Shown here: piece by piece, positions 4,604 to 36,040 of the stretch
How the letters are laid out: each line of letters opens with the position of its first letter
Position numbering within the stretch: position 1 is the stretch's first letter
Assembly (NCBI GenBank): GCA_043738235.1
Contig: JAYSZC010000383.1
Location: 1-36,040 of the forward strand
Length of the DNA stretch: 36,040 nt
DNA from: Lewinellaceae bacterium
GTDB lineage: Bacteria > Bacteroidota > Bacteroidia > Chitinophagales > Saprospiraceae
Reading direction: 5' to 3'
Translations under genes and position numbers: made by a program
The notes under the pieces: model-generated
Told to the model about the DNA's origin: nothing
What the model saw: the letters and a program-made list of their open reading frames with translations, nothing else
Database searches by the model: none

Positions 4604-4726
4604 GGTTGATAAAAGTTGATAAGGGTTGATGAAGGTTGATATTCAAGCGCTCGAAAAGAGTAAAATCGCTTCATTTTCGAGCAGTTGAATATCAACCTTA
4701 TCAACCTTTATAAACCCTCATCAACC
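4604..4726. repeat. inverted array of helically phased GGTTGAT / ATCAACC boxes around a central hairpin
   Basis: GTTGAT occurs at 4605, 4615, 4625 and 4635, exactly 10-bp phasing. The mirror ATCAAC boxes are at 4691, 4700, 4710 (degenerate ATAAAC) and 4720. The central stem is gctcgaaaa (4649-4657) / ttttcgagc (4674-4682), plus ttcaa/ttgaa (4642-4646 / 4685-4689). Confidence 0.85.
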
Positions 4727-4741
4727 TGTTGAGACAACTGC

Positions 4742-15168: not shown

Positions 15169-15201
15169 AGACCTATAAGGTTTTTGAAACCTTATAGGTC
15201 T
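15169..15201 (-). terminator. 15-bp perfect-stem hairpin in the GH78-like / GH106-like intergenic region
   Basis: agacctataaggttt-ttg-aaaccttataggtct, read directly. It lies downstream of the 15343 stop on the minus strand. No U-tract follows. Confidence 0.45.
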
Positions 15202-15223: not shown

Positions 15224-15319
15224 GAGGTGACATCTGCGAGGCACGAGCAGGTGTCATCTCAATGCGGAAATGTTGTGGTTTCGAGATGTCACTTGCTCGT
15301 ACCTCGCAAATGACACCTC
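15224..15319. repeat. long imperfect inverted repeat (37-nt arms, 32/37 complementary, 22-nt spacer) carrying four GGTGWCATCT-like boxes
   Basis: Arm 1 is gaggtgacatctgcgaggcacgagcaggtgtcatctc (15224-15260). Arm 2 is gagatgtcacttgctcgtacctcgcaaatgacacctc (15283-15319). I compared them base by base. Confidence 0.85.
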
Positions 15320-17722: not shown

Positions 17723-18616
17723 TTATAAAATTTTCTTTAAATAACCCATGCTACTGGTGATACTGGCGAAGGCGTCTTTCGGCATATCGTGTTCCACGAA
17801 GTAGTGTTTGACCCCACCCGTTTTGGCGTAAGAGAAAATTCTTTTAAAATCAATGACCCCTTCCCCGACAGGCATCAGGTTTTTGTAACCTTTGTCAAAA
17901 TCCTTGACATGCAGCAAAGGGAACCGGCCCTTGTGTTTTTTAAATAATGCTACCGGATCGACGCCGGCTTTTGATACCCATGCCAGATCGAGTTCAAATT
18001 TCATCACATCGGCCTTGATTTGCGAAGCGAAATAATCGAAAGGGATGGTCCCTTCCACGTTCAAAAACTCTTTGTCGTGGTTGTGGTAGCAAAATGTCAG
18101 GCCGGCTTTTTTTGCCAGTTCGCCGGCTTTATTCAATATTTCCGCGCCTTCTTTTACCTCGTCCAGCGTATCGTGCGGTATTCCAGCGCAAACCATATAT
18201 TTCACACCTCCCTCAGCCACCATGTCCACTAACTTTTGCGCCTCGTTTTTGAGCGTGTCCATTTTGGGCATTTTACTGGTATCGAATGCCGGATTGGGTC
18301 TAAAAGGCGCTCCAATAACATGGTGCGAGCGCCAGTCTAAGCCCAAACTTTTGCTCAATGCCGCAAACTCTTTGGGCGTCATGCCGTAGATGCCACCTTT
18401 CATACTAAAAGCGGATTCAAGCTCCTGAAAACCGATGGCTTTTATTTTTGTCAGATTACCTTTTACGTCCCCATCGAAACTTGGAAAAAAGGTAAATAAT
18501 TGCACGCCGATCGGCTTGCGTTTTTTGGAGATCAACATTTCACTCAGGGGGTTGGCCGACATGGCGCCAAGCGCCAGAAGCCCTGATTGTTTTAGAAAAT
18601 TTCTTCTGTTTTGCAT
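17723..18616 (-). CDS. Tat-exported sugar phosphate isomerase/epimerase family protein (xylose isomerase-like TIM barrel)
   Basis: 297-aa ORF with the twin-arginine leader MQNRRNFLKQSGLLALGAMS. The TIM-barrel pattern (FCYHNHDKEF, FELDLAW, HVKD, YFVEHD) is typical of AP-endonuclease-2/xylose-isomerase-like proteins. Confidence 0.75.
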   Translation of the reverse strand: MQNRRNFLKQSGLLALGAMSANPLSEMLISKKRKPIGVQLFTFFPSFDGDVKGNLTKIKAIGFQELESAFSMKGGIYGMTPKEFAALSKSLGLDWRSHHVIGAPFRPNPAFDTSKMPKMDTLKNEAQKLVDMVAEGGVKYMVCAGIPHDTLDEVKEGAEILNKAGELAKKAGLTFCYHNHDKEFLNVEGTIPFDYFASQIKADVMKFELDLAWVSKAGVDPVALFKKHKGRFPLLHVKDFDKGYKNLMPVGEGVIDFKRIFSYAKTGGVKHYFVEHDMPKDAFASITSSMGYLKKIL

Positions 18617-19107
18617 GATGATTGTTTTTAGAAACTGTAAGAATTATGAAGAAAACTGCAAGCCCACGCGCTCGAAACGTTCATATAGCATGTCCCTGTA
18701 GCCTGCTTTCAAATCATCAGGTAAAAAAGACCGTTCCAACAGATCGAGCCAGATTGGGAGCGCCGTTTCAAACTGCTAAGACGGTAAATATACAGGATTA
18801 AAAAAGTGTGGACATTCATTTTTTCAAACAAATGCCCACATCGCTGAAACCATTCTACTTTATGAAATCAAAACTTGTATGAAGCCGGGAGGAAATAAGC
18901 CCGGGAGGAATACTCAACGTTGAGCACAATATAGTCGGATTAAGGTAAATAAGGAGCGTAACAATCAGACGCATATGGGGTGCATTTTGTGCTATTTCAG
19001 GTGAAAATCTGCCCTTACAAGAGATATGTGTCGCTCAGACACATATTACGAAAAAAAAGTATGTTATAAAAAATAATGTACATGTTTGTTGCATTCAACT
19101 AAATTAT

Positions 19108-19115
19108 TACATTTG
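19108..19115 (+). promoter_or_regulatory. candidate -7 promoter box TACATTTG (TAnnTTTG) for the susC operon
   Basis: Exact consensus match in the AT-rich divergent region, with a TTG-containing stretch about 20 nt upstream (19085-19090). It would give a 5' UTR of about 150-180 nt. Confidence 0.3.
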
Positions 19116-19284
19116 CGTGTCACCTTTGCAAATCGCAGAATATCCTTTGGCTAAAAAAGATATTGTCGGTTAATAATTCTAAGGAAAATGGCCTAATTGA
19201 GTATTTCCAAATACATAATAACCACCTGTTACCAATACCTATTTATCGTAAACATTTAACGAATTAACCAATGGATGAATCTTA

Positions 19285-19318
19285 CTTGACGTTAGAACGT
19301 CCTTGACGTTAGAACGTC
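19285..19318 (+). repeat. perfect tandem duplication of a 17-bp unit (CTTGACGTTAGAACGTC x2) overlapping the susC start
   Basis: Copies at 19285-19301 and 19302-19318 are identical. Each contains the palindrome GACGTT-AG-AACGTC. Confidence 0.95.
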
Positions 19319-22300
19319 AAAAACCTAAACAGGGCTGGCCAAGGCTTTTATTATTGGCCTCGATGTTGTTCATTTCCCAACTCAGCTTTGCACAAACAAC
19401 CTCCATCACCGGAAAATTGCTTGATCAGGAGGCAAATCCATTGATCGGCGCTACGGTGATTGTGAAGGGCACGGCCAGCGGGACAGTGTCAGACACCGAA
19501 GGAAAATTCCGGCTAAGCGTTCCTCCGGGCGGAAGCACTTTAGTGGTTTCCTACACCGGGTACGCGACGCAGGAAATCCCAATTGACGGTCGCACGGAAT
19601 TCAACGTTACCCTCGTTGAAGGCATTTCCTCTGTCAATGAGATTGTGGTTGTTGCGTATGGCGTCCAAAAGAAAGCGACCCTGACCGGCGCCGTAGTGGC
19701 TATTGGAGGGAGGGACTTGACCAAGTCACCCGCTGTGGATATGTCCAATTCGCTTGCCGGCCGACTGGCGGGCGTAGTAGTGGTTCAACCCAGTGGCGAG
19801 CCGGGCTACGACGGCGCCACCATCAACATTCGAGGCATCAATACATTGGGCAACAGCAGCCCGCTGATCGTCATTGACGGTTTCCCTGACCGCGACGGTG
19901 GCTTGGGCCGTTTAAGCCCGCAAGACGTCGAATCCATTTCGGTCTTGAAAGACGCTTCGGCGGCCATCTACGGCGCGCGCGCTGCCAACGGCGCTATCTT
20001 GATCACGACCAAGCGAGGCAAAACGGGCAAGCCTACGATCTCCTACAATTTCAACCAGGGCTGGTCGCAACCTACCGTGGTGCCTGAAATGTCGAATTCT
20101 GTGGAGTATGCTAACATTATGAACGAGCTGCCCATTTACCGGTCCATTCCGGTCGGCGAATGGACTGCGGCTTCAAACAGCATCAAAAGCACAGGTACCT
20201 ACGACTCGCCCACGGCGGGCGTGGCCACGCTGAACGCCAACTACAGCCCGGAAGCGGTGACCAAATACGGCGATGGGTCCGATCCGTGGGGTCACACAGA
20301 CACTGACTGGTTTGGCGATGCGTTCAAAAAGTGGGCGCCGCAGAACCGTCACAACATCCAAATGTCAGGCGGGAGCGAAAACATTCGGTACCTGACCTCG
20401 CTGGGCTATGTTTTCCAGGACGCCATTTATAAAAACTCCGCTACTTTCTACAAACAGTACAATGCACGAGTCAACCTCGATGCCAAGGTGAACAACTACA
20501 TCAGTGCCAACATCGGCGCTATGTTGCGCCGGGAAAACCGCAACTTCCCCACCGAATCTGCCGGCGCCATTTTCCGCATGCTTATGCGCGGTCGGCCCAC
20601 CGAACCGGAAGTATGGCCCAACGGCAAACCCGGTCCCGACATCGAAAACGGCCAAAATCCTTATGTCATCACAACAAACGCCACGGGCTACACCCAAGAC
20701 CCCACCGACTACCAACAGGTCAACGGCGGGGTGGAGATTACTAACCCTTGGATCAGTGGGCTGAAGCTGACCCTCAGCGCAGCTATTGACCGCGCCAATC
20801 GCAGCACCAAAACGTTCCAAACACCCTGGGAACTGTACTACTGGGACCGCACTTCCTATGAAGCCGACGGCACGACGCCCCTGCTGGTCGGTGCGGTGCG
20901 CTCCAACTTCACGGATCCCCGTCTCTCCCAGTCCTACGCTTCCAGGCTTAACACTAACCTGACTTCCTTGCTCAGCTACGACCGCACAGTGGGCGACCAT
21001 GCGATCAACATTCTGGCCGGCGTCACGAAAGAACAGTTTAAAGGCGATTTCTTTTTTGCTTACCGTCGCAACTTCATTTCCACGGCGGTTGACCAGCTGT
21101 TTGCCGGTGGTTCCGAACAGCAAAACACCGGAGGGTCTGCCTTCGAGAGAGCTCGTTTGGGATATTACGGCCGTTTTCAGTACAATTTCAAGGAAAAATA
21201 CCTGGCTGAATTCATTTGGCGGTACGATGGCTCCTACATTTTCCCGAAAGCCGGCCGTTTCGGTTTCTTCCCCGGCTTGTTGCTCGGTTGGAATGTTTCG
21301 AGTGAAAGGTTCATGGAAAACGTCAAATTCATTAACTTCTTGAAACTGCGCGCCTCCTACGGGCAGATGGGCAATGACCAGGTGTTCTACAATGGACAGT
21401 TGCAGGAGTACGCTTATCTGTCCACGTATGGGTTTGGTGCTTATCCCATCAATGGCGTGGTGGTCAGTACGCTGCGGGAAGTTGTGCTGGCAAACCCCGA
21501 CTTTACCTGGGAACGCGCCAACAACCTCAACTTTGGCCTGGATGCTACCCTTTTTAATAGCAGAATTGACGTGAACTTTGAGGTTTTCAAAAACCGGCGC
21601 GATCAGATTTTGATCCAGAAAACAGGTTCCACGCCGGCTTCTTCGGGCATCAGTTCGCTGCTGCCGCCGGTCAACGCAGGCAAAGTAGACAACCAAGGCT
21701 TTGAGTTCGCTTTGGGCTACAATTCCAGTACCAGCAGCAAGTTGCGCTTCCGGGCCACTGTGAATGGTGGTTATGCCCAAAACAAAGTTGTGTTCATGGA
21801 CGAAGTTCCCGGTGCGCCCGATTATCAACGCCAGGAAGGCAAGCCCATTGGCGCCTTTTTGATCTATGAAGCCGACGGCGCCTTTTTGGACCAGGCCGCC
21901 GTGGAGGCAAACACCATTGATTATAGTGGCGTCACGACCCAACTGCTGCCCGGCGACCTGAAGATCAAGGATTACAACGGCGATGGCAAAATTGATGCCG
22001 ATGACCAGGTGCGCCTCAGTAGCAACGCTTTCCCTACTTTCAACTTCGGCGCAACTTTGACTCTCTCTTATGGCGATTTCGACTTTTCGGCCCTCTTCCA
22101 GGGCGCCACGGGCGCGGACATTCGCATTTCCACGGAATCCGGCGATATCGGGAACTTCCTGAAATATAGCCATGATAACCGTTGGTCAATTGCCAATCCA
22201 AGCAGCACGGATCCCCGTTTGGCAAGTCGCGGCGACACCTATTTTACAGGTGGCAACTTCGGTAACAACACGTATTTCCTCTTTAGTAAAGACTACGTTC

Positions 22301-22506
22301 GGTTGAAAAACATCGAGCTAGGCTACAGCATTCCCCGCAGCGTTTTGGACAAATATAAATTCTCTGGCCTGCGCTTTTACGTCAATGCTCTTAATTTGCT
22401 AACATTTGCTGCAAACGATATTTTTGATCCGGAATCTACGGCTGGAAATGGTGTCTATTATCCTCAATCGCGGGTTATTAACACGGGCATCAGCTTAACT
22501 TTCTAA
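19303..22506 (+). CDS. susC: SusC/RagA-family TonB-dependent outer-membrane transporter
   Basis: 1067-aa ORF. It has a signal peptide (…ISQLSFA-Q), a carboxypeptidase-regulatory-like N-terminal domain (ITGKLLDQEANPLIGATVIVKGT…), a plug with VVVAYGVQKKATLTGAV, and a C-terminal barrel ending …GISLTF. The start codon is uncertain: TTG at 19303, see the finding on the 17-bp duplication. Confidence 0.9.
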   Translation: MTLERQKPKQGWPRLLLLASMLFISQLSFAQTTSITGKLLDQEANPLIGATVIVKGTASGTVSDTEGKFRLSVPPGGSTLVVSYTGYATQEIPIDGRTEFNVTLVEGISSVNEIVVVAYGVQKKATLTGAVVAIGGRDLTKSPAVDMSNSLAGRLAGVVVVQPSGEPGYDGATINIRGINTLGNSSPLIVIDGFPDRDGGLGRLSPQDVESISVLKDASAAIYGARAANGAILITTKRGKTGKPTISYNFNQGWSQPTVVPEMSNSVEYANIMNELPIYRSIPVGEWTAASNSIKSTGTYDSPTAGVATLNANYSPEAVTKYGDGSDPWGHTDTDWFGDAFKKWAPQNRHNIQMSGGSENIRYLTSLGYVFQDAIYKNSATFYKQYNARVNLDAKVNNYISANIGAMLRRENRNFPTESAGAIFRMLMRGRPTEPEVWPNGKPGPDIENGQNPYVITTNATGYTQDPTDYQQVNGGVEITNPWISGLKLTLSAAIDRANRSTKTFQTPWELYYWDRTSYEADGTTPLLVGAVRSNFTDPRLSQSYASRLNTNLTSLLSYDRTVGDHAINILAGVTKEQFKGDFFFAYRRNFISTAVDQLFAGGSEQQNTGGSAFERARLGYYGRFQYNFKEKYLAEFIWRYDGSYIFPKAGRFGFFPGLLLGWNVSSERFMENVKFINFLKLRASYGQMGNDQVFYNGQLQEYAYLSTYGFGAYPINGVVVSTLREVVLANPDFTWERANNLNFGLDATLFNSRIDVNFEVFKNRRDQILIQKTGSTPASSGISSLLPPVNAGKVDNQGFEFALGYNSSTSSKLRFRATVNGGYAQNKVVFMDEVPGAPDYQRQEGKPIGAFLIYEADGAFLDQAAVEANTIDYSGVTTQLLPGDLKIKDYNGDGKIDADDQVRLSSNAFPTFNFGATLTLSYGDFDFSALFQGATGADIRISTESGDIGNFLKYSHDNRWSIANPSSTDPRLASRGDTYFTGGNFGNNTYFLFSKDYVRLKNIELGYSIPRSVLDKYKFSGLRFYVNALNLLTFAANDIFDPESTAGNGVYYPQSRVINTGISLTF

Positions 22507-22523: not shown

Positions 22524-24401
22524 ATGAAAAAGCTTAGTGCATTTTCGCTATTTTTATTGGCACTTGTCTCGATCTACATATCCTGCAAACCGGATTTCTT
22601 AGACACGGAGCCACTCGACAAAATTTCCAGTGAAGCAACCTGGAAGGATGGTCCCCTTTCGCAGGCTTTCATCTTCAATGTCTATTCATTCCTCGGTTAT
22701 GGAGGCTTTGAAGAACAGGCCCTGGCGTCCATTACCGATGAAGCCATGTTCACCCATGCCGGACGGAATATCGCGCCCTTCAACGAGGGAGCTGAAACGC
22801 CATCTAACCTGGCTTGGTTCAGTTCGACCTACAAATGGGACGATATGTACCTGGCTATTCGGCAAGCCAACATAGCATTGGAAAACTTGCCCACCTCAAC
22901 TTTCCAGGATGATCAACTGCGCGAGCGGCTTACAGGAGAAGCCTACTTTCTACGTGCCTACTACAACCAGCAACTCCTTCGTTACTATGGTGGCGTTCCC
23001 ATCATCACCAAATCTTATGGTTTGAACGAAGACTATACCATTGAGCGCAACACATATGAAGCATGTGTCAACGCCATTGTTGCCGACCTGGATCAGGCCG
23101 CTCAACTGTTGGACGGCAAATCGGAAATACCCGGTCGTGCCTCCAAGATTGCAGCCTTGGCCCTCAAATCAAGGGTTTTGCTGTACGCTGCCAGCGATCT
23201 CCATGATGGCCCCACGGCCAAATCCAACTCCAGCACATTGTCTTCTTTCGGCAATATTGAATTAGTGGCTTACAATGGCGGAGACCGTACTGCACGCTGG
23301 AGAGCAGCCAAAGAAGCAGCCAAAGCCGTACTGGATGCCTCTACCGGCTACAAATTGGACCTGGGCGCCCCTGCAACTTTAGAGGAAGGCAAAAACAACC
23401 ATATTGCCATTTCAATGGGCGGCAAAAGTAAAGCTGCCGATCCAAGTGCAGCGGTGGAGCTGATTTTCCAGCGCACACACACTGCTCTGTATACAGCCGA
23501 GGACAACTGGCCCCTGGGCGGTATCCACTATGGTATCAACAACGGACCGAACGGATACCACAACTGGGCCGGCAATACGCCGATCCAACAATTGGTAGAC
23601 GACTATGAAATGATGGACGGCACAAAATTCGATTGGAACAATCCTGCACAGAAAGCCGATCCATACCTCAACCGCGACCCTCGTTTTTATGCCACGATTC
23701 TTTTCGACGGTGCTGATTGGAAGCCACGCCCGGCCGATGTAGCTGCGCTCGATCCGGCGAATGAGATACAAACGGGCTACTATGACAATGGTAGCGGGGG
23801 TACGATTAATGGTATCGATACCCGTGAATCTGCCGTCGAAAACTGGAACGGCAGCCGTACACACTATTATGTCCGTAAATATATTGACCCGGATCCGGCT
23901 TTGCCCGACAACCAGTCCAGCGCCCAGGTAGTTCCGTGGCCCTTCATTCGCTATACCGAAGTGATTTTGAACTACGCCGAAGCCTGTATCGAATTGGGTG
24001 AAGAAAGCGAAGCACTTACATGGCTGAACAAGTTGCGTTTCCGCGCCGGTATGCCCGCCATTACCGAAAGCGGCGCGGCGCTGAAACAACGTTACCGCAA
24101 CGAACGCCGGGTAGAATTGGCCTATGAAGAGCACCGCTACCACGATGCCCGTCGCTGGATGATCGCACCTGCTACCCTCGGACGGGGTATTCAGGCCATC
24201 AATATCCAGGCAACGCTCAAACCGGGGGCCACCCCTGCCACGCCTTATCGCCACGATAAGAGCCTCTACGACTACAACTATACGGTGGTGAACAACACCG
24301 AGAACGAGAACCGCAGCTGGAACGACAAAATGTACTTCCGCCCCATTAGTCGTGACGAGATCAACCGGAACGCCAAGTTGGTGCAGAATCCGGGTTATTA
24401 G
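22524..24401 (+). CDS. susD: SusD/RagB-family nutrient-binding outer-membrane lipoprotein
   Basis: 625-aa ORF starting 17 nt after susC. It has a lipoprotein-type leader ending …IYISC. Typical SusD blocks are LRAYYNQQLLRYYGGVP, NRDPRFYATI and ERRVELAYEEHRYHDARRW. Confidence 0.9.
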   Translation: MKKLSAFSLFLLALVSIYISCKPDFLDTEPLDKISSEATWKDGPLSQAFIFNVYSFLGYGGFEEQALASITDEAMFTHAGRNIAPFNEGAETPSNLAWFSSTYKWDDMYLAIRQANIALENLPTSTFQDDQLRERLTGEAYFLRAYYNQQLLRYYGGVPIITKSYGLNEDYTIERNTYEACVNAIVADLDQAAQLLDGKSEIPGRASKIAALALKSRVLLYAASDLHDGPTAKSNSSTLSSFGNIELVAYNGGDRTARWRAAKEAAKAVLDASTGYKLDLGAPATLEEGKNNHIAISMGGKSKAADPSAAVELIFQRTHTALYTAEDNWPLGGIHYGINNGPNGYHNWAGNTPIQQLVDDYEMMDGTKFDWNNPAQKADPYLNRDPRFYATILFDGADWKPRPADVAALDPANEIQTGYYDNGSGGTINGIDTRESAVENWNGSRTHYYVRKYIDPDPALPDNQSSAQVVPWPFIRYTEVILNYAEACIELGEESEALTWLNKLRFRAGMPAITESGAALKQRYRNERRVELAYEEHRYHDARRWMIAPATLGRGIQAINIQATLKPGATPATPYRHDKSLYDYNYTVVNNTENENRSWNDKMYFRPISRDEINRNAKLVQNPGY

Positions 24402-24548: not shown

Positions 24549-27500
24549 ATGAAAAAACGGACGCTCGGCGAGCGAAATCTTTTCCTTTCGGTTACCTTCC
24601 TCTCGTGCCTGCTTTGGCAATGTGGCAGGGATAAAACCCAGGAAACGGTAAGCCCTCCTCCTCCTGCCAATACCCTCTTTTCCCTGCTCTCCCCGGCAGA
24701 GACCGGTGTCAATTTCCAGAACACCCTCACGGAAGGCCCGAACACCAATATTTTGGTTTATGAATATTTTTACAACGGCGGCGGTGTCGCGGCGGGTGAT
24801 TTTAATGGCGACGGGCTGATTGACCTGTACTTTACCGCCAACATGGAAACCAACCGCTTCTACCTCAACCAGGGCGGTATGAAATTCAAGGACGTGACCG
24901 AACTGTCCGGCGCTGCCGGCCGGCCGGGCCCCTGGAAAACCGGGGTCAGCCTCGTGGACATCAACGGCGACCAGAAACTGGACCTCTACGTGTCGTACTC
25001 CGGTATGTTGCCCGAACCGAAACGCGCCAACCAACTCTTCATCAACCTGGGCAACGACGCCAACGGCGTACCGCGTTTTGAAGACCAGGCCGCCGCTTAC
25101 GGGCTGGCCAGCACAGGCTTCAGCAACCAGGCCTATTTTTTCGACTACGACCGGGACGGCGACCTGGATATGCTGCTGCTCAACCACAGCCCCAAGTCGT
25201 TGCCCATGCTCACCGAGACGGGCAACGCCGAAATGCTGAAACAGGACGACCCTAACCAGGGACTGCGCCTTTTCCGCCAGGACAAAGGCCATTTTACCGA
25301 TGTTACCCAGGCTGCCGGCATTTCTGGTTCGCCCCTTAGCTATGGCCTAGGTCTCGGTATTGCGGACGTGAACCGGGATGACTGGCCGGATTTTTACGTG
25401 TCGAACGATTACGCCGTGCCCGATTATCTTTATATCAACAATAAAAACGGCACTTTCACCGACCGATTGGGCCAAAGCCTCGGCCACAACAGCCAATTCT
25501 CGATGGGCAATGACGTCGCCGACGTGAACAACGACGGCTGGGCGGACATCGTGACCCTCGATATGTTGCCAGAGGACAACCGGCGGCAAAAACTGCTGCT
25601 GGCCCCCGACAACTACGCCAAATACGACCTCAACGTGCGCAGCAGCTTCCATCACCAGTTCATGCGCAATATGCTCCAGCTCAACAACGGCAACGGCACA
25701 TTCAGCGAAATCGGCCAATTGGCCGGTATCTCTAATACGGATTGGAGTTGGGCGGCCCTCCTGGCCGATTACGACAACGACGGCTGGAAAGACCTTTTCG
25801 TCACCAATGGCTATTATCGCGACTATACCAACCTGGATTTTATCCATTACATGGACGATGTGGTGCAGGCGAAAGGCCGGTTGCAACGCGAAGATGTGTT
25901 GGAGATCATCCAGCACATGCCCGCTTCCGATGTGTCCAACTACCTTTTCGCCAATCAGGATGGGCAGTCGTTCGTTAATAAATCCCAAGATTGGGGCGTG
26001 GCGCGCCCCTCGAACAGCAACGGCGCCGCTTATGCCGATCTGGACAATGACGGCGACCTGGATTTGGTGGTCAACAACGTGAACCAGCCCGCCTTCGTCT
26101 ATCGCAACGAAGCACAGCGGCAACCTAACCGTCATTATTTGCAAATACAATTGCAAGAGACGGGCGGAAACACGCAAGGCATCGGGGCCGGCGTGACCAT
26201 TTTCGCTCAAGGCCGGCAACAAACCCTGGAACAACAATGCGCGCGCGGCTACCTATCGGCCGTTTCGCCACTGCTGCACTTTGGTTTGGGTCAAGCCACC
26301 CACGTGGATTCTTTGGTGGTCACCTGGCCCAATGGTCGGCAACAAATACTGACCAATGTCCCCGTTGACCAAAAGTTGATCCTGCAAGCAAAAGACGCCG
26401 GTCGGCCAGCCCAAAAGTTGCCGGTACAAAGCCCTGTTTTCCGCAAAACAACGCCTCCTTTCCAATTTCAACAGGTCACCTCCACCGTACGAGACTTCGA
26501 CCGACAAAATTTGCTGATTTGCGAACTGTCTTTTACCGGCCCTTGCTTAGTCAAAGGTGATGTGAATGGCGACAAACGGGAAGATATATTGGTGGGAGGC
26601 GCAGCAGGCCAGGCCCTGACTTTATACTTACAAGAATCCGGCGGGCGCTTCAGCAATAAGGCCATACCTGCTTTTGAGGCCGATAAAGCTTGCACAGATG
26701 CCGATTTAGCACTGTTTGATGCCAATGGAGATGGTTTCCCCGACCTCTACGCCGCCAGCGGCGGGTATAATCAGTTGACCGACCAAGACCCGCTCCTGCT
26801 TGACCGGCTCTACCTCAATGATGGGAAAGGCCATTTTACGCGCGACGCGGAGGCTTTACCCGACTTTCGCGCCAGCAAAGGTTGTGTAGCGGTAGGCGAT
26901 TGCAACCGCGACGGACACCCCGACCTGTTTGTCGGCGGAAGAGTAGTGCCGGGACGGTACCCTGAAGCCCCCGGTAGCGCGCTGTTGATCAATGACGGGA
27001 AAGGCCATTTTTCCGACCAAACAAATGCATGGGCGCCGCAACTCCGAAATATGAGCATGGTCACCGATGCTGTTTGGGTGGACCTTGATCAAGATGGGCA
27101 ACAAGAATTGGTTATTGTGGGCGAGTGGCTACCTATTTCCGTCTATGCCGTGCAGGGGGGTAAACTGGAAGACCGAACCCTCCAATATTTCGGAAACTCC
27201 TACCGGGGCTGGTGGAATACCTTAGAAGTGGCAGACCTTAACCATGATCAAAAACCTGATTTGATAGCCGGGAACATGGGTCTGAACACGCAATTTAAAG
27301 TATCGGACACCGAACCAGCAGAACTTTACTACCGTGACTTCGATGGAAATGGTTCGGTTGATCCTATTTTTTGTTTTTTCATTCAGGGAAAAAGTTATCC
27401 CTATGTAACCCGTGACGAACTGGGTAAACAATTGCCAAGAATGCGCGCCCGCTTCACTTCCTACGAAAGTTATGCCGACGCCACCTTGAAAGACATGTTC

Positions 27501-27914
27501 TCTGATGAGGATATCCAAAAAGCCGGACATTTGACAGCAACCTATATGGCGACTGCCCTTTTTATCAATCAAGGCGGACAATCGCTGCGCTTGCAAACGC
27601 TGCCGGCAGAGGCCCAATATTCGCCTGTTTGCGCCATTGGTATAATTGATGCCAATCAGGACAGTCACCCGGATTTGCTTTTATGCGGTAATAACAGCCA
27701 TGCAAAACTGCGCCTGGGTAAGTTTGATGCCAATTACGGTATGCTGCTGACTGGCGACGGGAAGGGAGGTTTTCAGTACGTGCCCCAGACACAATCGGGT
27801 CTGAAATTGAAAGGAGATGTACGGAGTGTGTTGTCTATTGGCAAAACGGTGTTGTTTGGCATCAACCAAAGCGCTCTTGTTTCTTATCAACTTAATAACC
27901 ACAATGGGTTATGA
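24549..27914 (+). CDS. FG-GAP/VCBS-repeat protein with central UnbV/ASPIC domain (CRTAC1-like), probable lipoprotein
   Basis: 1121-aa ORF with the leader …FLSCLLWQCG. Repeated Ca-binding-like FG-GAP/VCBS motifs are present: DFNGDGLIDLY, DYDRDGDLDML, DVNNDGWADIV, DYDNDGWKDLF, DLDNDGDLDLV, DANGDGFPDLY. The UnbV/ASPIC block is GIGAGVTIFAQGRQQTLEQQCARGYLSAVSPLLHFGLGQATHVDSLVVTWPNG. Confidence 0.8.
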   Translation: MKKRTLGERNLFLSVTFLSCLLWQCGRDKTQETVSPPPPANTLFSLLSPAETGVNFQNTLTEGPNTNILVYEYFYNGGGVAAGDFNGDGLIDLYFTANMETNRFYLNQGGMKFKDVTELSGAAGRPGPWKTGVSLVDINGDQKLDLYVSYSGMLPEPKRANQLFINLGNDANGVPRFEDQAAAYGLASTGFSNQAYFFDYDRDGDLDMLLLNHSPKSLPMLTETGNAEMLKQDDPNQGLRLFRQDKGHFTDVTQAAGISGSPLSYGLGLGIADVNRDDWPDFYVSNDYAVPDYLYINNKNGTFTDRLGQSLGHNSQFSMGNDVADVNNDGWADIVTLDMLPEDNRRQKLLLAPDNYAKYDLNVRSSFHHQFMRNMLQLNNGNGTFSEIGQLAGISNTDWSWAALLADYDNDGWKDLFVTNGYYRDYTNLDFIHYMDDVVQAKGRLQREDVLEIIQHMPASDVSNYLFANQDGQSFVNKSQDWGVARPSNSNGAAYADLDNDGDLDLVVNNVNQPAFVYRNEAQRQPNRHYLQIQLQETGGNTQGIGAGVTIFAQGRQQTLEQQCARGYLSAVSPLLHFGLGQATHVDSLVVTWPNGRQQILTNVPVDQKLILQAKDAGRPAQKLPVQSPVFRKTTPPFQFQQVTSTVRDFDRQNLLICELSFTGPCLVKGDVNGDKREDILVGGAAGQALTLYLQESGGRFSNKAIPAFEADKACTDADLALFDANGDGFPDLYAASGGYNQLTDQDPLLLDRLYLNDGKGHFTRDAEALPDFRASKGCVAVGDCNRDGHPDLFVGGRVVPGRYPEAPGSALLINDGKGHFSDQTNAWAPQLRNMSMVTDAVWVDLDQDGQQELVIVGEWLPISVYAVQGGKLEDRTLQYFGNSYRGWWNTLEVADLNHDQKPDLIAGNMGLNTQFKVSDTEPAELYYRDFDGNGSVDPIFCFFIQGKSYPYVTRDELGKQLPRMRARFTSYESYADATLKDMFSDEDIQKAGHLTATYMATALFINQGGQSLRLQTLPAEAQYSPVCAIGIIDANQDSHPDLLLCGNNSHAKLRLGKFDANYGMLLTGDGKGGFQYVPQTQSGLKLKGDVRSVLSIGKTVLFGINQSALVSYQLNNHNGL

Positions 27915-31145: not shown

Positions 31146-32036
31146 ATGGAAGTATTCCGCAAATATTTTAGCGAATCCCAACTGAAAGACCTGGAAGAAT
31201 CGGGTCCCAACTGGGGCGTAAATGTGCATACCGTCGGGCACTACGTACATCCTCCCCGGCGGGCGTACCCCGACCCGGAGCATCCATCCACGTATGTGTT
31301 TCAGTGGGAAAAAGGGCGACGCCTGCAGGAATTTCAAATGGTTTACATCGCCAGCGGAAGAGGCATTTACGAAGGCGACGGCCTGGAGCCGATTGCCATT
31401 GAGGCCGGCACGCTGATGATGCATTTCCCGGAAGTATGGCACCGCTACAAACCCTTGCCGGAAACTGGGTGGGAGGAATTCTGGGTGGGTTTTGACGGGC
31501 ATTTTGCCGAATACCTGATGGGACAGGAATGCTTCGACCCTCAAAAACCTCTCATCAGCATCGGGTTTAACGCAGAGTTCCTCAACATTTTTCTACGCCT
31601 GATCGACACGGTGAAATACGAAGGTGTGGCTTTCCGCCAGATTTCATCCTGCCTCGTGATCCAGATGCTCGGACTGGTGTACGCTTCGGCTTTGATGCAC
31701 GGCAAAACCAAACTCCGGCAGGAACAAATCATCCAGGCCGTCCGGTTCAAAATACACGAAAACTGGGAACGCAACCTCGATTTCGAAGCCATTGCGGCGG
31801 AGCAAAATGTGAGTTACGAATGGTTCCGGAAAACCTTCAAGGATGTGCTGGGCACCTCGCCCGGACAATACCTGCTCCACCTGAAAATTGAAAAAACCGG
31901 CCAGATGCTGCGGGAAACATCGCTGACCATTGCGGAAATAGCCGACAAAGCGGGTTTTGAATCGGAGTTTTACTTTTCCCGGATTTTTAAAAAGAAAATG
32001 GGGCAGACGCCGAGCGCATTCCGGAAAAAAGGCTGA
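31146..32036 (+). CDS. AraC-family transcriptional regulator (cupin-like sensor + HTH), candidate rhamnose/locus regulator
   Basis: 296-aa ORF with an N-terminal cupin-like half. The C-terminal dual HTH includes NVSYEWFRKTFKDVLGTSPGQYLL and IAEIADKAGFESEFYFSRIFKKKMGQTPSAFRK. Rhamnose regulons in Bacteroidetes are known to use AraC-type regulators, but orthology was not tested. Confidence 0.8.
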   Translation: MEVFRKYFSESQLKDLEESGPNWGVNVHTVGHYVHPPRRAYPDPEHPSTYVFQWEKGRRLQEFQMVYIASGRGIYEGDGLEPIAIEAGTLMMHFPEVWHRYKPLPETGWEEFWVGFDGHFAEYLMGQECFDPQKPLISIGFNAEFLNIFLRLIDTVKYEGVAFRQISSCLVIQMLGLVYASALMHGKTKLRQEQIIQAVRFKIHENWERNLDFEAIAAEQNVSYEWFRKTFKDVLGTSPGQYLLHLKIEKTGQMLRETSLTIAEIADKAGFESEFYFSRIFKKKMGQTPSAFRKKG

Positions 32037-35162: not shown

Positions 35163-35936
35163 TCAGGTATTCAAGGTTATAAATCCCCCGTCAATCGGAT
35201 AGTCGCAACCGGTAATGAAGGAGGCTTCATCGGAACATAAAAACAATGCAAGGTGCGCGATTTCCTCGGGTTTTCCCATGCGACCGATGGGTTGGGTTTT
35301 GGAGAGTTTTTCAAACATTTCAGCTACTCTGCCCGGATAGTTTTTTTGTAAATAACCGTCTACAAAAGGCGTGTGCACCCGTCCGGGTGAAATACAGTTG
35401 CAGCGGATCTGGTACTCCAGAAAATCCTTGGCTACCGACAAAGTCATGCCCACGACCGCTGCTTTGGTCGTAGTATAAGCAAAACGTTCGGCCAGGCCCA
35501 CCGACGAGGCAACGGAAGCGAGGTTCAACACCACGCCGCCCTTTTGCTTCATGAGGGGCAACACCGCATGGAGGCAATGGTATACGCCTTTTACATTGAC
35601 GCTCAACAGGCGCTCGAAGTCGGCGGCTTCTGTCGTTTCGGCTGTGCCGATATGCGCCACGCCTGCATTGTTCACGAGAATATCAATAGCGGCATAGCGC
35701 CCGGCAATATGCTGTACTGCCTGCTGCACGGCGGCCTGGTCGGCTACGTTGCAGGGTAGAAACATGGCCTCGCCCTGCTCCTGCCGTATCTCGGCAGCCA
35801 CAGCGCTTCCTTCCTGCTCATCCAAATCCAGGATGCACACCACAGCGCCCTGCCGGGCAAAACACAAAGCAATGGCTTTGCCGATACCGCTTCCGCCGCC
35901 GGTGATGAGGGCTACTTTGTTGTCGAGTCGAAACAC
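35163..35936 (-). CDS. SDR-family NAD(P)-dependent oxidoreductase (FabG-like)
   Basis: 257-aa ORF with a GTG start. Motifs are TGGGSGIGKA, NNAG, the catalytic YTTTKAA, and a typical C-terminal ITGCDYPIDGGF. It ends 8 nt before the FAD/Fe-S remnant. The substrate cannot be assigned from sequence. Confidence 0.8.
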   Translation of the reverse strand: MFRLDNKVALITGGGSGIGKAIALCFARQGAVVCILDLDEQEGSAVAAEIRQEQGEAMFLPCNVADQAAVQQAVQHIAGRYAAIDILVNNAGVAHIGTAETTEAADFERLLSVNVKGVYHCLHAVLPLMKQKGGVVLNLASVASSVGLAERFAYTTTKAAVVGMTLSVAKDFLEYQIRCNCISPGRVHTPFVDGYLQKNYPGRVAEMFEKLSKTQPIGRMGKPEEIAHLALFLCSDEASFITGCDYPIDGGFITLNT

Positions 35937-35944
35937 TTTTTTTT

Positions 35945-36040
<96 letters not shown>

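What the first reader, a model, noticed from the sequence alone, without database searches (positions are those of the whole stretch)
19271..19320. Perfect 17-bp tandem duplication sits on the susC start and throws the upstream ATG out of frame
CTTGACGTTAGAACGTC occurs twice back to back (19285-19301 and 19302-19318) with no mismatch.

The ATG at 19271 is now out of frame. It reads ATG GAT GAA TCT TAC TTG ACG TTA GAA CGT CCT TGA, an 11-codon mini-ORF. Its TGA (19304-19306) overlaps the in-frame TTG (19303) that heads the long ORF, forming TTGA.

Removing one 17-bp copy puts ATG 19271 in frame. The product would begin MDESYLTLERQKPKQGWPRLLLLASMLFISQLSFAQ…, a normal-looking SusC leader.

Possible explanations:
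- a recent slipped-strand duplication that weakens or silences the transporter;
- a reversible copy-number switch, since 17 is not a multiple of 3;
- uORF-coupled TTG initiation;
- a duplicated protein-binding site, since each copy contains the palindrome GACGTT-AG-AACGTC.
Basis: seen in the sequence. Interest (0 to 1): 0.65.

Follow-up and report, generated by a model that had tools for sequence, protein, structure and literature searches.

The report
Frameshifting 17-bp duplication at susC start
In one sediment bacterium, a sugar-uptake outer-membrane transporter gene (susC) carries a recent 17-base tandem duplication that throws its normal start codon out of frame; this is an ordinary strain-specific mutation that probably reduces, and may abolish, production of the transporter.

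Summary
CTTGACGTTAGAACGTC occurs twice in tandem (19285-19301 and 19302-19318) with no mismatch. ATG 19271 now opens an 11-codon ORF whose TGA overlaps TTG 19303, the first start codon of the 1067-codon susC frame.

The two-copy form is real. Separate assemblies of two sediment metagenome runs carry it exactly.

It is derived and lineage-specific. All 80 related susC loci have an in-frame ATG ahead of the signal peptide. The five orthologues checked at DNA level have one copy. Orthologues are 1071-1072 aa (1067+5) and keep the M-x-E-S-Y N-terminus that the one-copy reading restores. A low-coverage contig from another study is identical on the flanks, lacks exactly 17 nt, and has the ATG in frame.

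The two copies form a -17.4 kcal/mol hairpin with the TTG in its loop. SusC can therefore be made only from a weak, structured TTG, plausibly by termination-reinitiation after the mini-ORF, or not at all.

The palindrome in the unit is absent from relatives, so it is not a conserved binding site. Nothing shows an evolved switch, but raw reads were not available.

Verdict: a recent frameshifting duplication in a rhamnose-utilisation locus. It is a known kind of event and of low interest.

The parts
19285..19301 (+). Copy 1 of the 17-bp unit CTTGACGTTAGAACGTC. It corresponds to the single ancestral copy (codons 5-11 of the ancestral CDS).
   Evidence: The alignment to L001/L002 shows a clean 17-nt insertion relative to them.
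19302..19318 (+). Copy 2 of the 17-bp unit, 100% identical to copy 1. It supplies the TTG that is in frame with susC.
19271..19273 (+). Ancestral ATG start codon of susC, now out of frame with the gene.
   Evidence: The CCAATG context is conserved in L001, L002, L081 and L083. The encoded M-x-E-S-Y-[LF] N-terminus is conserved in orthologues P0014, P0016 and P0017. All 80 related loci have an in-frame ATG.
19271..19306 (+). 11-codon mini-ORF (MDESYLTLERP, then stop) created by the frameshift. Its TGA (19304-19306) overlaps TTG 19303 as TTGA.
   Evidence: read directly from the sequence.
19303..22506 (+). susC reading frame from the only usable in-frame start (TTG): 1067 aa, SusC/RagA TonB-dependent transporter, otherwise intact.
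   Evidence: ORF. (CarbopepD_reg_2 and Plug domains). (TIGR04056, 884 bits, profile positions 2-981 of 981). (100% query coverage by orthologues of 1071-1072 aa).
19303..19392 (+). Signal peptide as it would be made from the TTG: MTLERQKPKQGWPRLLLLASMLFISQLSFA, then Q. It has a basic n-region, a hydrophobic core and an A-Q cleavage context. The site was inferred by eye, not by a predictor.
   Evidence: translation. Comparison with the N-termini of 60 homologues that end in ..A/S-Q.
19286..19320 (+). RNA hairpin that exists only in the two-copy allele. Stems are 19286-19293/19313-19320 and 19296-19301/19305-19310. The loop is 19302-19304. The first two bases of TTG 19303 are in the loop and its G closes the inner stem.
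   Evidence: -17.4 kcal/mol, z = -4.4, 0 of 200 shuffles fold as well; the one-copy form gives -7.3 kcal/mol. Mean unpaired probability around the TTG is 0.25, against 0.59 around the ATG.
19363..19365 (+). Internal ATG (Met21 of the TTG frame) that the public gene call used as the start (P0001, 1047 aa). A product from here would lack the n-region and half the hydrophobic core of the signal peptide.
19085..19115 (+). Candidate Bacteroidota-type promoter: TTTG at 19085-19088 and TACATTTG at 19108-19115 (TAnnTTTG type). It would give a leader of about 150 nt. Inferred only.
   Evidence: TACATTTG is invariant in the window, L001 and L002 (invariant columns 69-76). The consensus form is from my own knowledge of Bacteroides promoters.
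22524..24401 (+). susD partner gene, intact, 17 nt downstream of susC.
   Evidence: SusD_RagB profile 2-297 of 297; SusD-like_3 profile 1-191 of 191.

Best explanation
This is a recent, lineage-specific 17-bp tandem duplication inside the first codons of a susC transporter gene. The gene belongs to a rhamnose-utilisation locus of an uncultured Saprospirales-like bacterium.

Shown:
- The ancestral gene started at ATG 19271 and carried one copy of the unit.
- The duplication adds 17 nt (not a multiple of 3), so ribosomes starting at the conserved ATG stop after 11 codons.
- The duplicated unit contains the ancestral Leu6 codon TTG. The second copy therefore places a TTG exactly in the susC frame, overlapping the mini-ORF's stop (TTGA).
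- The rest of the gene and its susD partner are intact.

Inferred:
- SusC can now be made only from that TTG. It is a weak start codon, lacks the upstream adenines that Bacteroidota favour, and sits at the tip of a -17.4 kcal/mol hairpin formed by the two palindromic copies.
- The most likely route to protein is a ribosome that translates the mini-ORF, melts the hairpin, terminates at TGA and re-initiates on the overlapping TTG. The product would be a full transporter lacking only MDESY, at reduced level.
- The palindrome in the unit is itself new in this lineage. It may have arisen by quasipalindrome template switching and may have favoured the duplication.

Confidence in parts: about 0.9 that this is a real, derived, non-conserved mutation; about 0.5 that residual TTG-driven expression exists rather than a null.
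For: - Reality: two independent run assemblies carry the two-copy form with no differences.
- Derived state: the five orthologues read at DNA level have one copy and an in-frame ATG in a conserved CCAATG context.
- All 80 related loci have an in-frame ATG ahead of the signal peptide.
- Close orthologues are 1071-1072 aa, equal to 1067+5, and share the M-x-E-S-Y-[LF] start.
- Run X5 holds a 223-nt contig that is identical on the flanks and lacks exactly 17 nt, reading MDESYLTPEPLKPKQGW with the ATG in frame.
- Not recurrent: only 1 of 80 relatives has any tandem duplication of 9 nt or more near its start, and that one is in frame.
- Gene otherwise intact: TIGR04056 at 884 bits over the full profile, and susD complete.
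- Hairpin and accessibility.
- Bacteroidota initiation is tuned by mRNA structure and by adenines at -3, -6, -12 and -13, and does not use Shine-Dalgarno pairing (PMC6847099).
- Stop/start overlaps of 4 nt support termination-reinitiation in bacteria (PMC6728339).
- Palindrome is new: 12/14 in the window against 4/14 in X5, L001 and L002.
- Outgroup codons make TCA (codon 8) and CGT (codon 10) ancestral. The window lineage's two derived changes both perfect the inverted repeat GACGTT/AACGTC. This is the signature described for quasipalindrome template switching (PMC7202029).
Against: - No expression, proteomic or ribosome-profiling data exist for this organism, and no RNA run was found. TTG use and re-initiation are untested.
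- Re-initiation at UUG in a Bacteroidota has not, to my knowledge, been measured.
- The one-copy allele comes from a single 223-nt contig at depth 2.5 and differs at 5 positions within the unit. It is a sister allele, not the direct precursor.
- Only consensus contigs at 6-7x were available for the two-copy population, so heterogeneity in copy number is not excluded.
- The quasipalindrome scenario rests on two inferred substitutions.
Confidence: 0.6

Rival explanations
1. Nascent pseudogene. The duplication abolishes SusC production altogether, because the TTG in the hairpin is not used. The gene simply has not yet had time to accumulate further lesions.
For: - TTG is a weak start and has A only at -6 of the favoured positions (PMC6847099).
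- Mean unpaired probability around it is 0.25, and the hairpin is -17.4 kcal/mol.
- The copies are still 100% identical, so the event is young enough that an intact downstream ORF carries no information.
Against: - The mini-ORF starts at the conserved, presumably efficient ATG and ends on the TTG itself. This is the geometry that supports re-initiation elsewhere (PMC6728339).
- The allele is the only one seen in two samples.
- susC, susD and the rest of the locus are complete.
Confidence: 0.3
2. Evolved or exploited reversible switch. Gain and precise loss of the 17-bp copy toggles susC between ATG-driven (on) and off/low states, as tandem duplications in cap3A toggle the pneumococcal type 3 capsule.
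For: - The unit length is not a multiple of 3.
- Precise loss of one copy restores the conserved N-terminus.
- Perfect tandem copies that can also pair as a hairpin are prone to slippage (my own knowledge of repeat instability).
- Copy number differs between near-identical strains.
- A precedent exists: Waite et al. 2001, as summarised in PMC11163986.
Against: - There are only two copies.
- No relative has a repeat at this site.
- No copy-number variant appears in the contigs of either run that carries it.
- The one-copy allele found differs at 5 positions within the unit, so it is not a simple revertant.
- Known variable expression of SusC/SusD in Bacteroides uses invertible DNA, not repeats (my own knowledge).
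Confidence: 0.07
3. Assembly or sequencing artefact. The real genome has one copy.
For: Short tandem duplications are occasionally introduced by assemblers. Coverage is low, at 6-7x.
Against: - Three assemblies agree: the window, Logan X1 and Logan X2, from two samples.
- With 31-mer assembly graphs the copy-1/copy-2 junction words must exist in the reads.
- A two-copy array of 34 nt forms no cycle in such a graph (inference).
Confidence: 0.03
4. Duplicated operator. The palindrome GACGTT-AG-AACGTC is a regulator binding site, and the duplication doubles it.
For: Each unit is 12/14 self-complementary. An AraC-family regulator is encoded in the locus at 31146-32036.
Against: - The palindrome is absent from X5, L001 and L002 at the homologous position, 4/14 in each.
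- The site lies inside the coding sequence, about 150 nt downstream of the conserved promoter box.
- The motif occurs nowhere else in the window.
Confidence: 0.02
5. Programmed -1 ribosomal frameshifting carries ribosomes from the ATG frame into the susC frame, with the hairpin acting as the stimulator.
For: A strong hairpin lies just downstream of the ATG. The susC frame is open from 19279.
Against: - There is no slippery X XXY YYZ heptamer between 19279 and 19306 (by inspection).
- The hairpin begins inside the region where the shift would have to occur, not 5-9 nt after it.
- The arrangement is not conserved.
Confidence: 0.01

Closest known systems
Spontaneous tandem duplications in cap3A that switch the Streptococcus pneumoniae type 3 capsule off, with precise reversion switching it on (Waite et al. 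2001, as summarised in PMC11163986)
   Same: A perfect tandem duplication inside an ORF disrupts the product. Precise loss of one copy would restore the wild-type reading.
   Different: In cap3A, on and off subpopulations and reversion were observed experimentally. Here no heterogeneity has been seen, the organism is uncultured, and the duplication leaves a possible in-frame restart.
Translational coupling by termination-reinitiation at 4-nt stop/start overlaps (ATGA type) in bacteria and archaea (Huber et al. 2019, PMC6728339)
   Same: [quoted passage not shown] The upstream ORF has the good initiation site, and the downstream start is structurally occluded.
   Different: The known cases are conserved gene pairs, mostly with ATG restarts and often with an internal Shine-Dalgarno motif. 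Here the 'upstream gene' is an accidental 11-codon remnant, the restart codon is TTG, and the phylum ignores Shine-Dalgarno sequences (PMC6847099). Coupling was not tested.
Simple-sequence-repeat contingency loci (Haemophilus, Neisseria and others; reviewed in PMC4235727, listed but not read; the description here is my own knowledge)
   Same: A repeat unit that is not a multiple of 3 lies in the 5' coding region of an outer-membrane protein gene.
   Different: Contingency loci have long tracts of 1-7-nt units, conserved as tracts across strains, with high switching rates. This is a two-copy 17-mer found in one lineage only.
Quasipalindrome-associated template-switch mutations (Ripley 1982; Lovett laboratory, PMC7202029)
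   Same: Clustered substitutions turn an imperfect inverted repeat into a perfect one. The window allele is 12/14 self-complementary against 4/14 in relatives, and both inferred derived changes are perfecting.
   Different: Only two substitutions support it, and the ancestor is inferred from outgroups. That literature describes base changes, not the accompanying 17-bp duplication.
Invertase-driven phase variation of SusC/SusD-family genes in gut Bacteroides
   Same: Expression of SusC-family transporters varies within populations.
   Different: The mechanism there is site-specific DNA inversion of promoters or gene segments. No invertase or inverted-repeat-flanked promoter is involved here.

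Membership tests
SusC/RagA family TonB-dependent transporter | Full-length match to the curated subfamily model above its cut-off | tested here: met
   TIGR04056 at 884.4 bits (cut-off 368), profile positions 2-981 of 981. The TIGR04057 signature scores 58.3 bits (cut-off 46.2).
SusC/RagA family TonB-dependent transporter | N-terminal carboxypeptidase-regulatory-like domain followed by a Plug domain | tested here: met
   PF13715 at residues 35-116 and PF07715 at residues 124-231.
SusC/RagA family TonB-dependent transporter | A susD-family lipoprotein gene immediately downstream | tested here: met
   ORF 22524-24401 carries PF14322 and PF07980 over their full profiles.
SusC/RagA family TonB-dependent transporter | ATG-initiated signal peptide, as in the orthologues | tested here: not met
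   There is no in-frame ATG upstream of the hydrophobic core. Only TTG 19303 is available. All 80 relatives have such an ATG.
Simple-sequence-repeat contingency locus (phase variation by slipped-strand mispairing) | A tract of many tandem units | tested here: not met
   Exactly 2.0 copies.
Simple-sequence-repeat contingency locus (phase variation by slipped-strand mispairing) | A repeat tract present at the homologous site in related strains or species | tested here: not met
   Single copy in X5, L001, L002, L081 and L083. Only 1 of 80 relatives has any tandem duplication near its start, an in-frame 12-mer.
Simple-sequence-repeat contingency locus (phase variation by slipped-strand mispairing) | Copy-number heterogeneity within a population | tested here: inconclusive
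   No variant appears in the contigs of X1 or X2.
Duplication/reversion on-off switching (cap3A type) | A perfect tandem duplication within the ORF that disrupts the reading frame | tested here: met
Duplication/reversion on-off switching (cap3A type) | Precise loss of one copy restores the wild-type product | tested here: met
   The in-silico one-copy reading gives MDESYLTLERQKPKQGW..., which matches the orthologue N-termini and a length of 1072 aa.
Duplication/reversion on-off switching (cap3A type) | Observed revertant subpopulations at elevated frequency | not testable with these tools
   Only Logan contigs are available for the 2023 runs, and there is no culture.
Termination-reinitiation translational coupling | [quoted passage not shown] | tested here: met
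   TTGA at 19303-19306.
Termination-reinitiation translational coupling | Downstream translation depends on upstream translation | not testable with these tools
   This needs reporters or ribosome profiling. Indirect support only: the TTG is occluded by a -17.4 kcal/mol hairpin that a translating ribosome would open.
Termination-reinitiation translational coupling | The arrangement is conserved among relatives | tested here: not met
   It is unique to this allele.
Quasipalindrome template-switch mutation | Clustered changes that make an imperfect inverted repeat perfect | tested here: inconclusive
   Self-complementarity is 12/14 against 4/14 in relatives. The differences from X5 are clustered, P about 1.5e-5. 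Both inferred window-lineage changes are perfecting. Only two events support this, and the ancestor is inferred.

The most novel reading that the evidence does not exclude
The two-copy allele is one state of a palindrome-driven, reversible duplication/deletion toggle that sets a SusC transporter between high (ATG) and low (uORF-coupled TTG) expression in an environmental Saprospirales. For example, it could lower a surface protein that phages or predators use as a receptor while keeping a trickle of uptake. That would be a cap3A-like duplication switch in Bacteroidota, a phylum known for invertase switches, with a built-in leaky 'off' state.
Probability: 0.07. Interest if true: 0.55.

Novelty: new member of a known kind. 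Interest (0 to 1): 0.22.

Why it matters
The practical value is for annotation.
- The duplication made the public gene call start at an internal Met (a 1047-aa product without a working signal peptide), and a naive reader would call a TTG start.
- The comparative data show that the true ancestral start is ATG 19271, and that this population carries a frameshift allele of the transporter that heads a rhamnose-polysaccharide utilisation locus.

Biologically it is a natural example of two things.
- A tandem duplication that includes an in-frame TTG can partly rescue its own frameshift.
- A newly perfected palindrome coincides with a duplication.

If copy number proved to vary within the population, it would be a rare repeat-based switch on a SusC gene. 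Otherwise it is a routine strain polymorphism.

Tried and rejected
- Exact-protein look-up of the 1067-aa TTG product: not on record.
- Metagenome-collection scan with a degenerate ERQKPKQGWP pattern: 0 hits.
- Metagenome-collection scan with the invariant 22-mer just downstream of the repeat: 0 hits.
- Protein search with the 104-aa one-copy N-terminus, to find short same-species fragments: one unrelated 54% hit.
- RNA runs: none listed.
- Rfam on 18500-19600: only a sub-threshold Bacteroides-1 match at 19001-19054 (21.9 bits against a gathering score of 43, E = 0.47). Nothing at the repeat.
- Runs X6, X7 and X8 hold strains 0-2% diverged, but their contigs begin at 19327-19337 and do not cover the repeat. 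X3 and X4 hold only a 151-nt piece.
- Terminator reading of the hairpin: rejected. No T-run follows it on either strand.
- Programmed frameshifting: rejected for lack of a slippery site.
- Operator reading: rejected because the palindrome is not conserved.
- Local donor template: I searched the window for a source of the X5-type or window-type unit, as a sign of gene conversion, and found none.
- A possible direct-repeat explanation for the X5 allele's own clustered changes was considered and left as unsupported speculation.
Full report
**Observation.** The window contains CTTGACGTTAGAACGTC twice in tandem at 19285-19301 and 19302-19318, with no mismatch. Tandem Repeats Finder gives period 17, 2.0 copies, 100% matches and score 68. 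A mismatch-tolerant search gives 3 sites against 0.01 expected by chance. It is the only perfect tandem duplication of 12 nt or more in the 36 kb, apart from a heptamer tract at the window end. ATG 19271 reads 11 codons and stops at TGA 19304-19306. TTG 19303 is the first ATG/GTG/TTG of the long frame 19303..22506, which opens only at 19279 after a TGA. Removing one copy gives MDESYLTLERQKPKQGWPRLLLLASMLFISQLSFAQ.

**Is it real DNA?** The stretch is held almost completely (0.98-1.00 of sampled words) by two sediment-metagenome runs from two samples of one study. Their separately assembled contigs cross the repeat (19012-19943 and 19012-19679) with no substitution or gap, at word depth 7.3 and 6.3. 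In a 31-mer assembly graph the junction between the copies can only appear if reads contain it, and a 34-nt array forms no cycle in the graph. I therefore treat an artefact as very unlikely. These are consensus contigs at low depth. Raw reads were not available, so rare one-copy or three-copy molecules cannot be excluded.

**Gene and context.** The ORF is a complete SusC/RagA transporter. It matches TIGR04056 at 884 bits over the whole profile and carries CarbopepD_reg_2 and Plug domains. A complete susD follows it, then FG-GAP/ASPIC proteins, a PAP2 protein and an AraC-family regulator. Upstream, on the other strand, lie GH78 and GH106 alpha-L-rhamnosidases, RhaT and related genes. This is a rhamnose-glycan utilisation locus. 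The closest genomes are Saprospirales MAGs at 85-86% protein identity. The species itself is absent from the genome and JGI metagenome collections.

**Ancestral state.** In L001 and L002 the same place reads ccaATG...TTG... with one copy and the ATG in frame. The alignment shows a clean 17-nt insertion in the window, with the CCAATG context and an upstream TACATTTG box invariant. All 80 related loci have an in-frame ATG ahead of the signal peptide. The nearest proteins are 1071-1072 aa, which equals 1067+5. Orthologues such as P0014 (MYESYFMSERTKQKPVW) share the M-x-E-S-Y-[LF]..E start that only the one-copy reading gives the window. The ATG at 19271 is therefore the ancestral start and one copy is the ancestral state. 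The public gene call for this very contig (P0001, 1047 aa) begins at the internal Met21, inside the hydrophobic core of the signal peptide. The duplication induced this mis-annotation.

**A near-identical strain with one copy.** Run X5, from a different study, holds a 223-nt contig at depth 2.5 over 19273-19512. It lacks exactly 17 nt and has two substitutions in the reported alignment. Reconstructed, it reads ATG GAT GAA TCT TAC TTG ACT CCA GAA CCT CTA AAA CCT..., with the ATG in frame. Against the window's one-copy reading it differs at 5 positions, all within 12 nt of the unit, and at none of the other 213 positions. The chance of such clustering is about 1.5e-5. Related strains elsewhere differ by 0-2% (33 differences in 1,617 nt in X8), so this short stretch is a local hotspot. 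The window's unit is 12/14 self-complementary (GACGTT-AG-AACGTC). The homologous stretch in X5, L001 and L002 is 4/14. Outgroup codons (TCA at codon 8; CGT at codon 10 in L081 and L002) imply that the window lineage changed CDS positions 21 (to G) and 23 (C to T). These are exactly the two changes that make the left arm complementary to the ancestral right arm AACGTC. That is the pattern described for quasipalindrome template-switch mutation (PMC7202029). I offer it as an inference from two changes, not as a demonstration. The duplication has no flanking microhomology. A link between the new palindrome and the duplication is plausible but unproven.

**Consequences.** Ribosomes starting at the conserved ATG now make MDESYLTLERP and stop. 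The duplicated unit includes the ancestral Leu6 codon, so copy 2 puts a TTG in the susC frame, overlapping the stop as TTGA. A product from it, MTLERQKPKQGWPRLLLLASMLFISQLSFA then Q, keeps a basic n-region, the hydrophobic core and the A-Q cleavage context seen in the homologues. It would lose only five residues. As a stand-alone start the TTG is poor. It is a non-AUG codon and has A only at -6 of the favoured positions. The two copies pair into a 14-bp hairpin with a 2x2 internal loop and a CUU loop: -17.4 kcal/mol, z = -4.4, 0 of 200 shuffles as stable, against -7.3 kcal/mol for one copy. The mean unpaired probability is 0.25 around the TTG and 0.59 around the ATG. In Bacteroidota, initiation does not use Shine-Dalgarno pairing and is tuned by mRNA structure and upstream adenines (PMC6847099). 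A ribosome translating the mini-ORF would open the hairpin and terminate on top of the TTG. That geometry supports termination-reinitiation at 4-nt overlaps in other prokaryotes (PMC6728339). My best estimate is reduced, re-initiation-dependent expression (about 0.5), with a functional null as the main alternative (about 0.3-0.4). Nothing available here can separate them: no RNA run holds the gene.

**Rivals.**
- Evolved copy-number switch. This is not supported. There are two copies only, no repeat at this site in any relative, no variant in the contigs, and the one-copy allele is not a simple revertant. It is not excluded either. Duplication/reversion switching has a precedent in pneumococcal cap3A (Waite et al. 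2001, via PMC11163986).
- Operator. Rejected, because the palindrome is allele-specific and lies in coding sequence.
- Programmed frameshifting. There is no slippery site.
- Terminator. No T-run follows the hairpin.
- Known RNA family. None at the site.

**Comparison with known systems, and novelty.** It works like any frameshifting tandem duplication. It resembles cap3A duplications, 4-nt-overlap coupling and quasipalindrome mutagenesis in separate respects. It meets the sequence-level criteria of the first two but none of the functional or conservation criteria (see the membership table). It is a new instance of a known kind of event in a clear SusC family member. Interest is low, at about 0.2. 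Its main value is the corrected start-site annotation and a tidy natural example of a duplication that partly rescues its own frameshift.

**Limits.**
- Population heterogeneity could not be examined, because only contigs were available.
- The one-copy allele rests on one low-depth contig.
- The promoter and the signal-peptide cleavage site are inferred by eye.
- All functional statements are inferences from sequence and from published work on other organisms.

Noticed in passing
window 35945-36040: A perfect heptamer tract (AATGATG) x13.7 runs off the window end. On the minus strand it reads (CATCATT)n followed by A8, directly 5' of the GTG start (35936) of a short-chain dehydrogenase gene. 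In runs X1 and X2 the heptamer has word depth in the thousands with many different flanks, and the species-specific contigs stop at 35897-35913. It is therefore a community-wide repeat and probably the reason the contig ends there. Its junction to this genome is not independently supported.
   Followed up: partly
window 18145-19011: Neither X1 nor X2 has any Logan contig over this stretch, which covers the 5' end of the TIM-barrel gene and most of the divergent intergenic region upstream of susC. Both have contigs on either side that end or begin at almost the same positions (18139/18144 and 19012). The window assembly bridges a segment that the single-run assemblies lack. The cause is unknown: low coverage of AT-rich DNA, strain variation or a mis-join.
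   Followed up: no
window 15169-15201 and 15224-15319: Two intergenic palindromic elements lie between two rhamnosidase genes. One is a perfect 15-nt inverted repeat with a 3-nt spacer (AGACCTATAAGGTTT/AAACCTTATAGGTCT). The other is a 37-nt-arm inverted repeat, 86% complementary. The region shows up to about 20-fold excess depth, many loose ends and an 'opposite strands' joint (15150/15279) in X1 and X2, as expected of a multi-copy REP- or MITE-like element.
   Followed up: partly
window 4604-4641 and 4690-4727: Four GTTGAT-containing 10-bp units (GGTTGATAAA x3.8) face four units of the reverse complement (TATCAACCTT x3.9) across a 48-nt spacer that itself contains an inverted repeat (GCTCGAAAA...TTTTCGAGC). 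The arrays lie just upstream of rhaT on the minus strand and overlap the listed TTG start of that ORF. They could be a helical-phase binding array for a regulator, or a large palindromic element.
   Followed up: no
window 23303-23325: A perfect 12-nt tandem repeat (AGCAGCCAAAGA x1.9) lies inside susD. Its length is a multiple of 3, so it keeps the reading frame.
   Followed up: no
window 24789-25764: Within the FG-GAP/ASPIC gene (24549-27914), contigs of X1, X2 and X8 show several 'skips' (251, 594-605, 107 and 131 nt), some with replacement letters, and local depth up to about 160. This suggests repeat-domain copy variation or cross-mapping from paralogous FG-GAP repeats.
   Followed up: no
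window 19001-19054: A weak, sub-threshold Rfam match to the Bacteroides-1 sRNA lies in the susC upstream region (21.9 bits against a gathering score of 43, E = 0.47). It is probably chance.
   Followed up: no
window 19085-19115; L001 about 2758-2766; L002 about 2826-2833: A TACATTTG box (Bacteroidota -7 type, TAnnTTTG) is invariant in the window and the two closest MAGs. The downstream leader motifs GTCA and ATTTGGC are also invariant. This is a probable locus promoter with a conserved leader of about 150-220 nt.
   Followed up: partly
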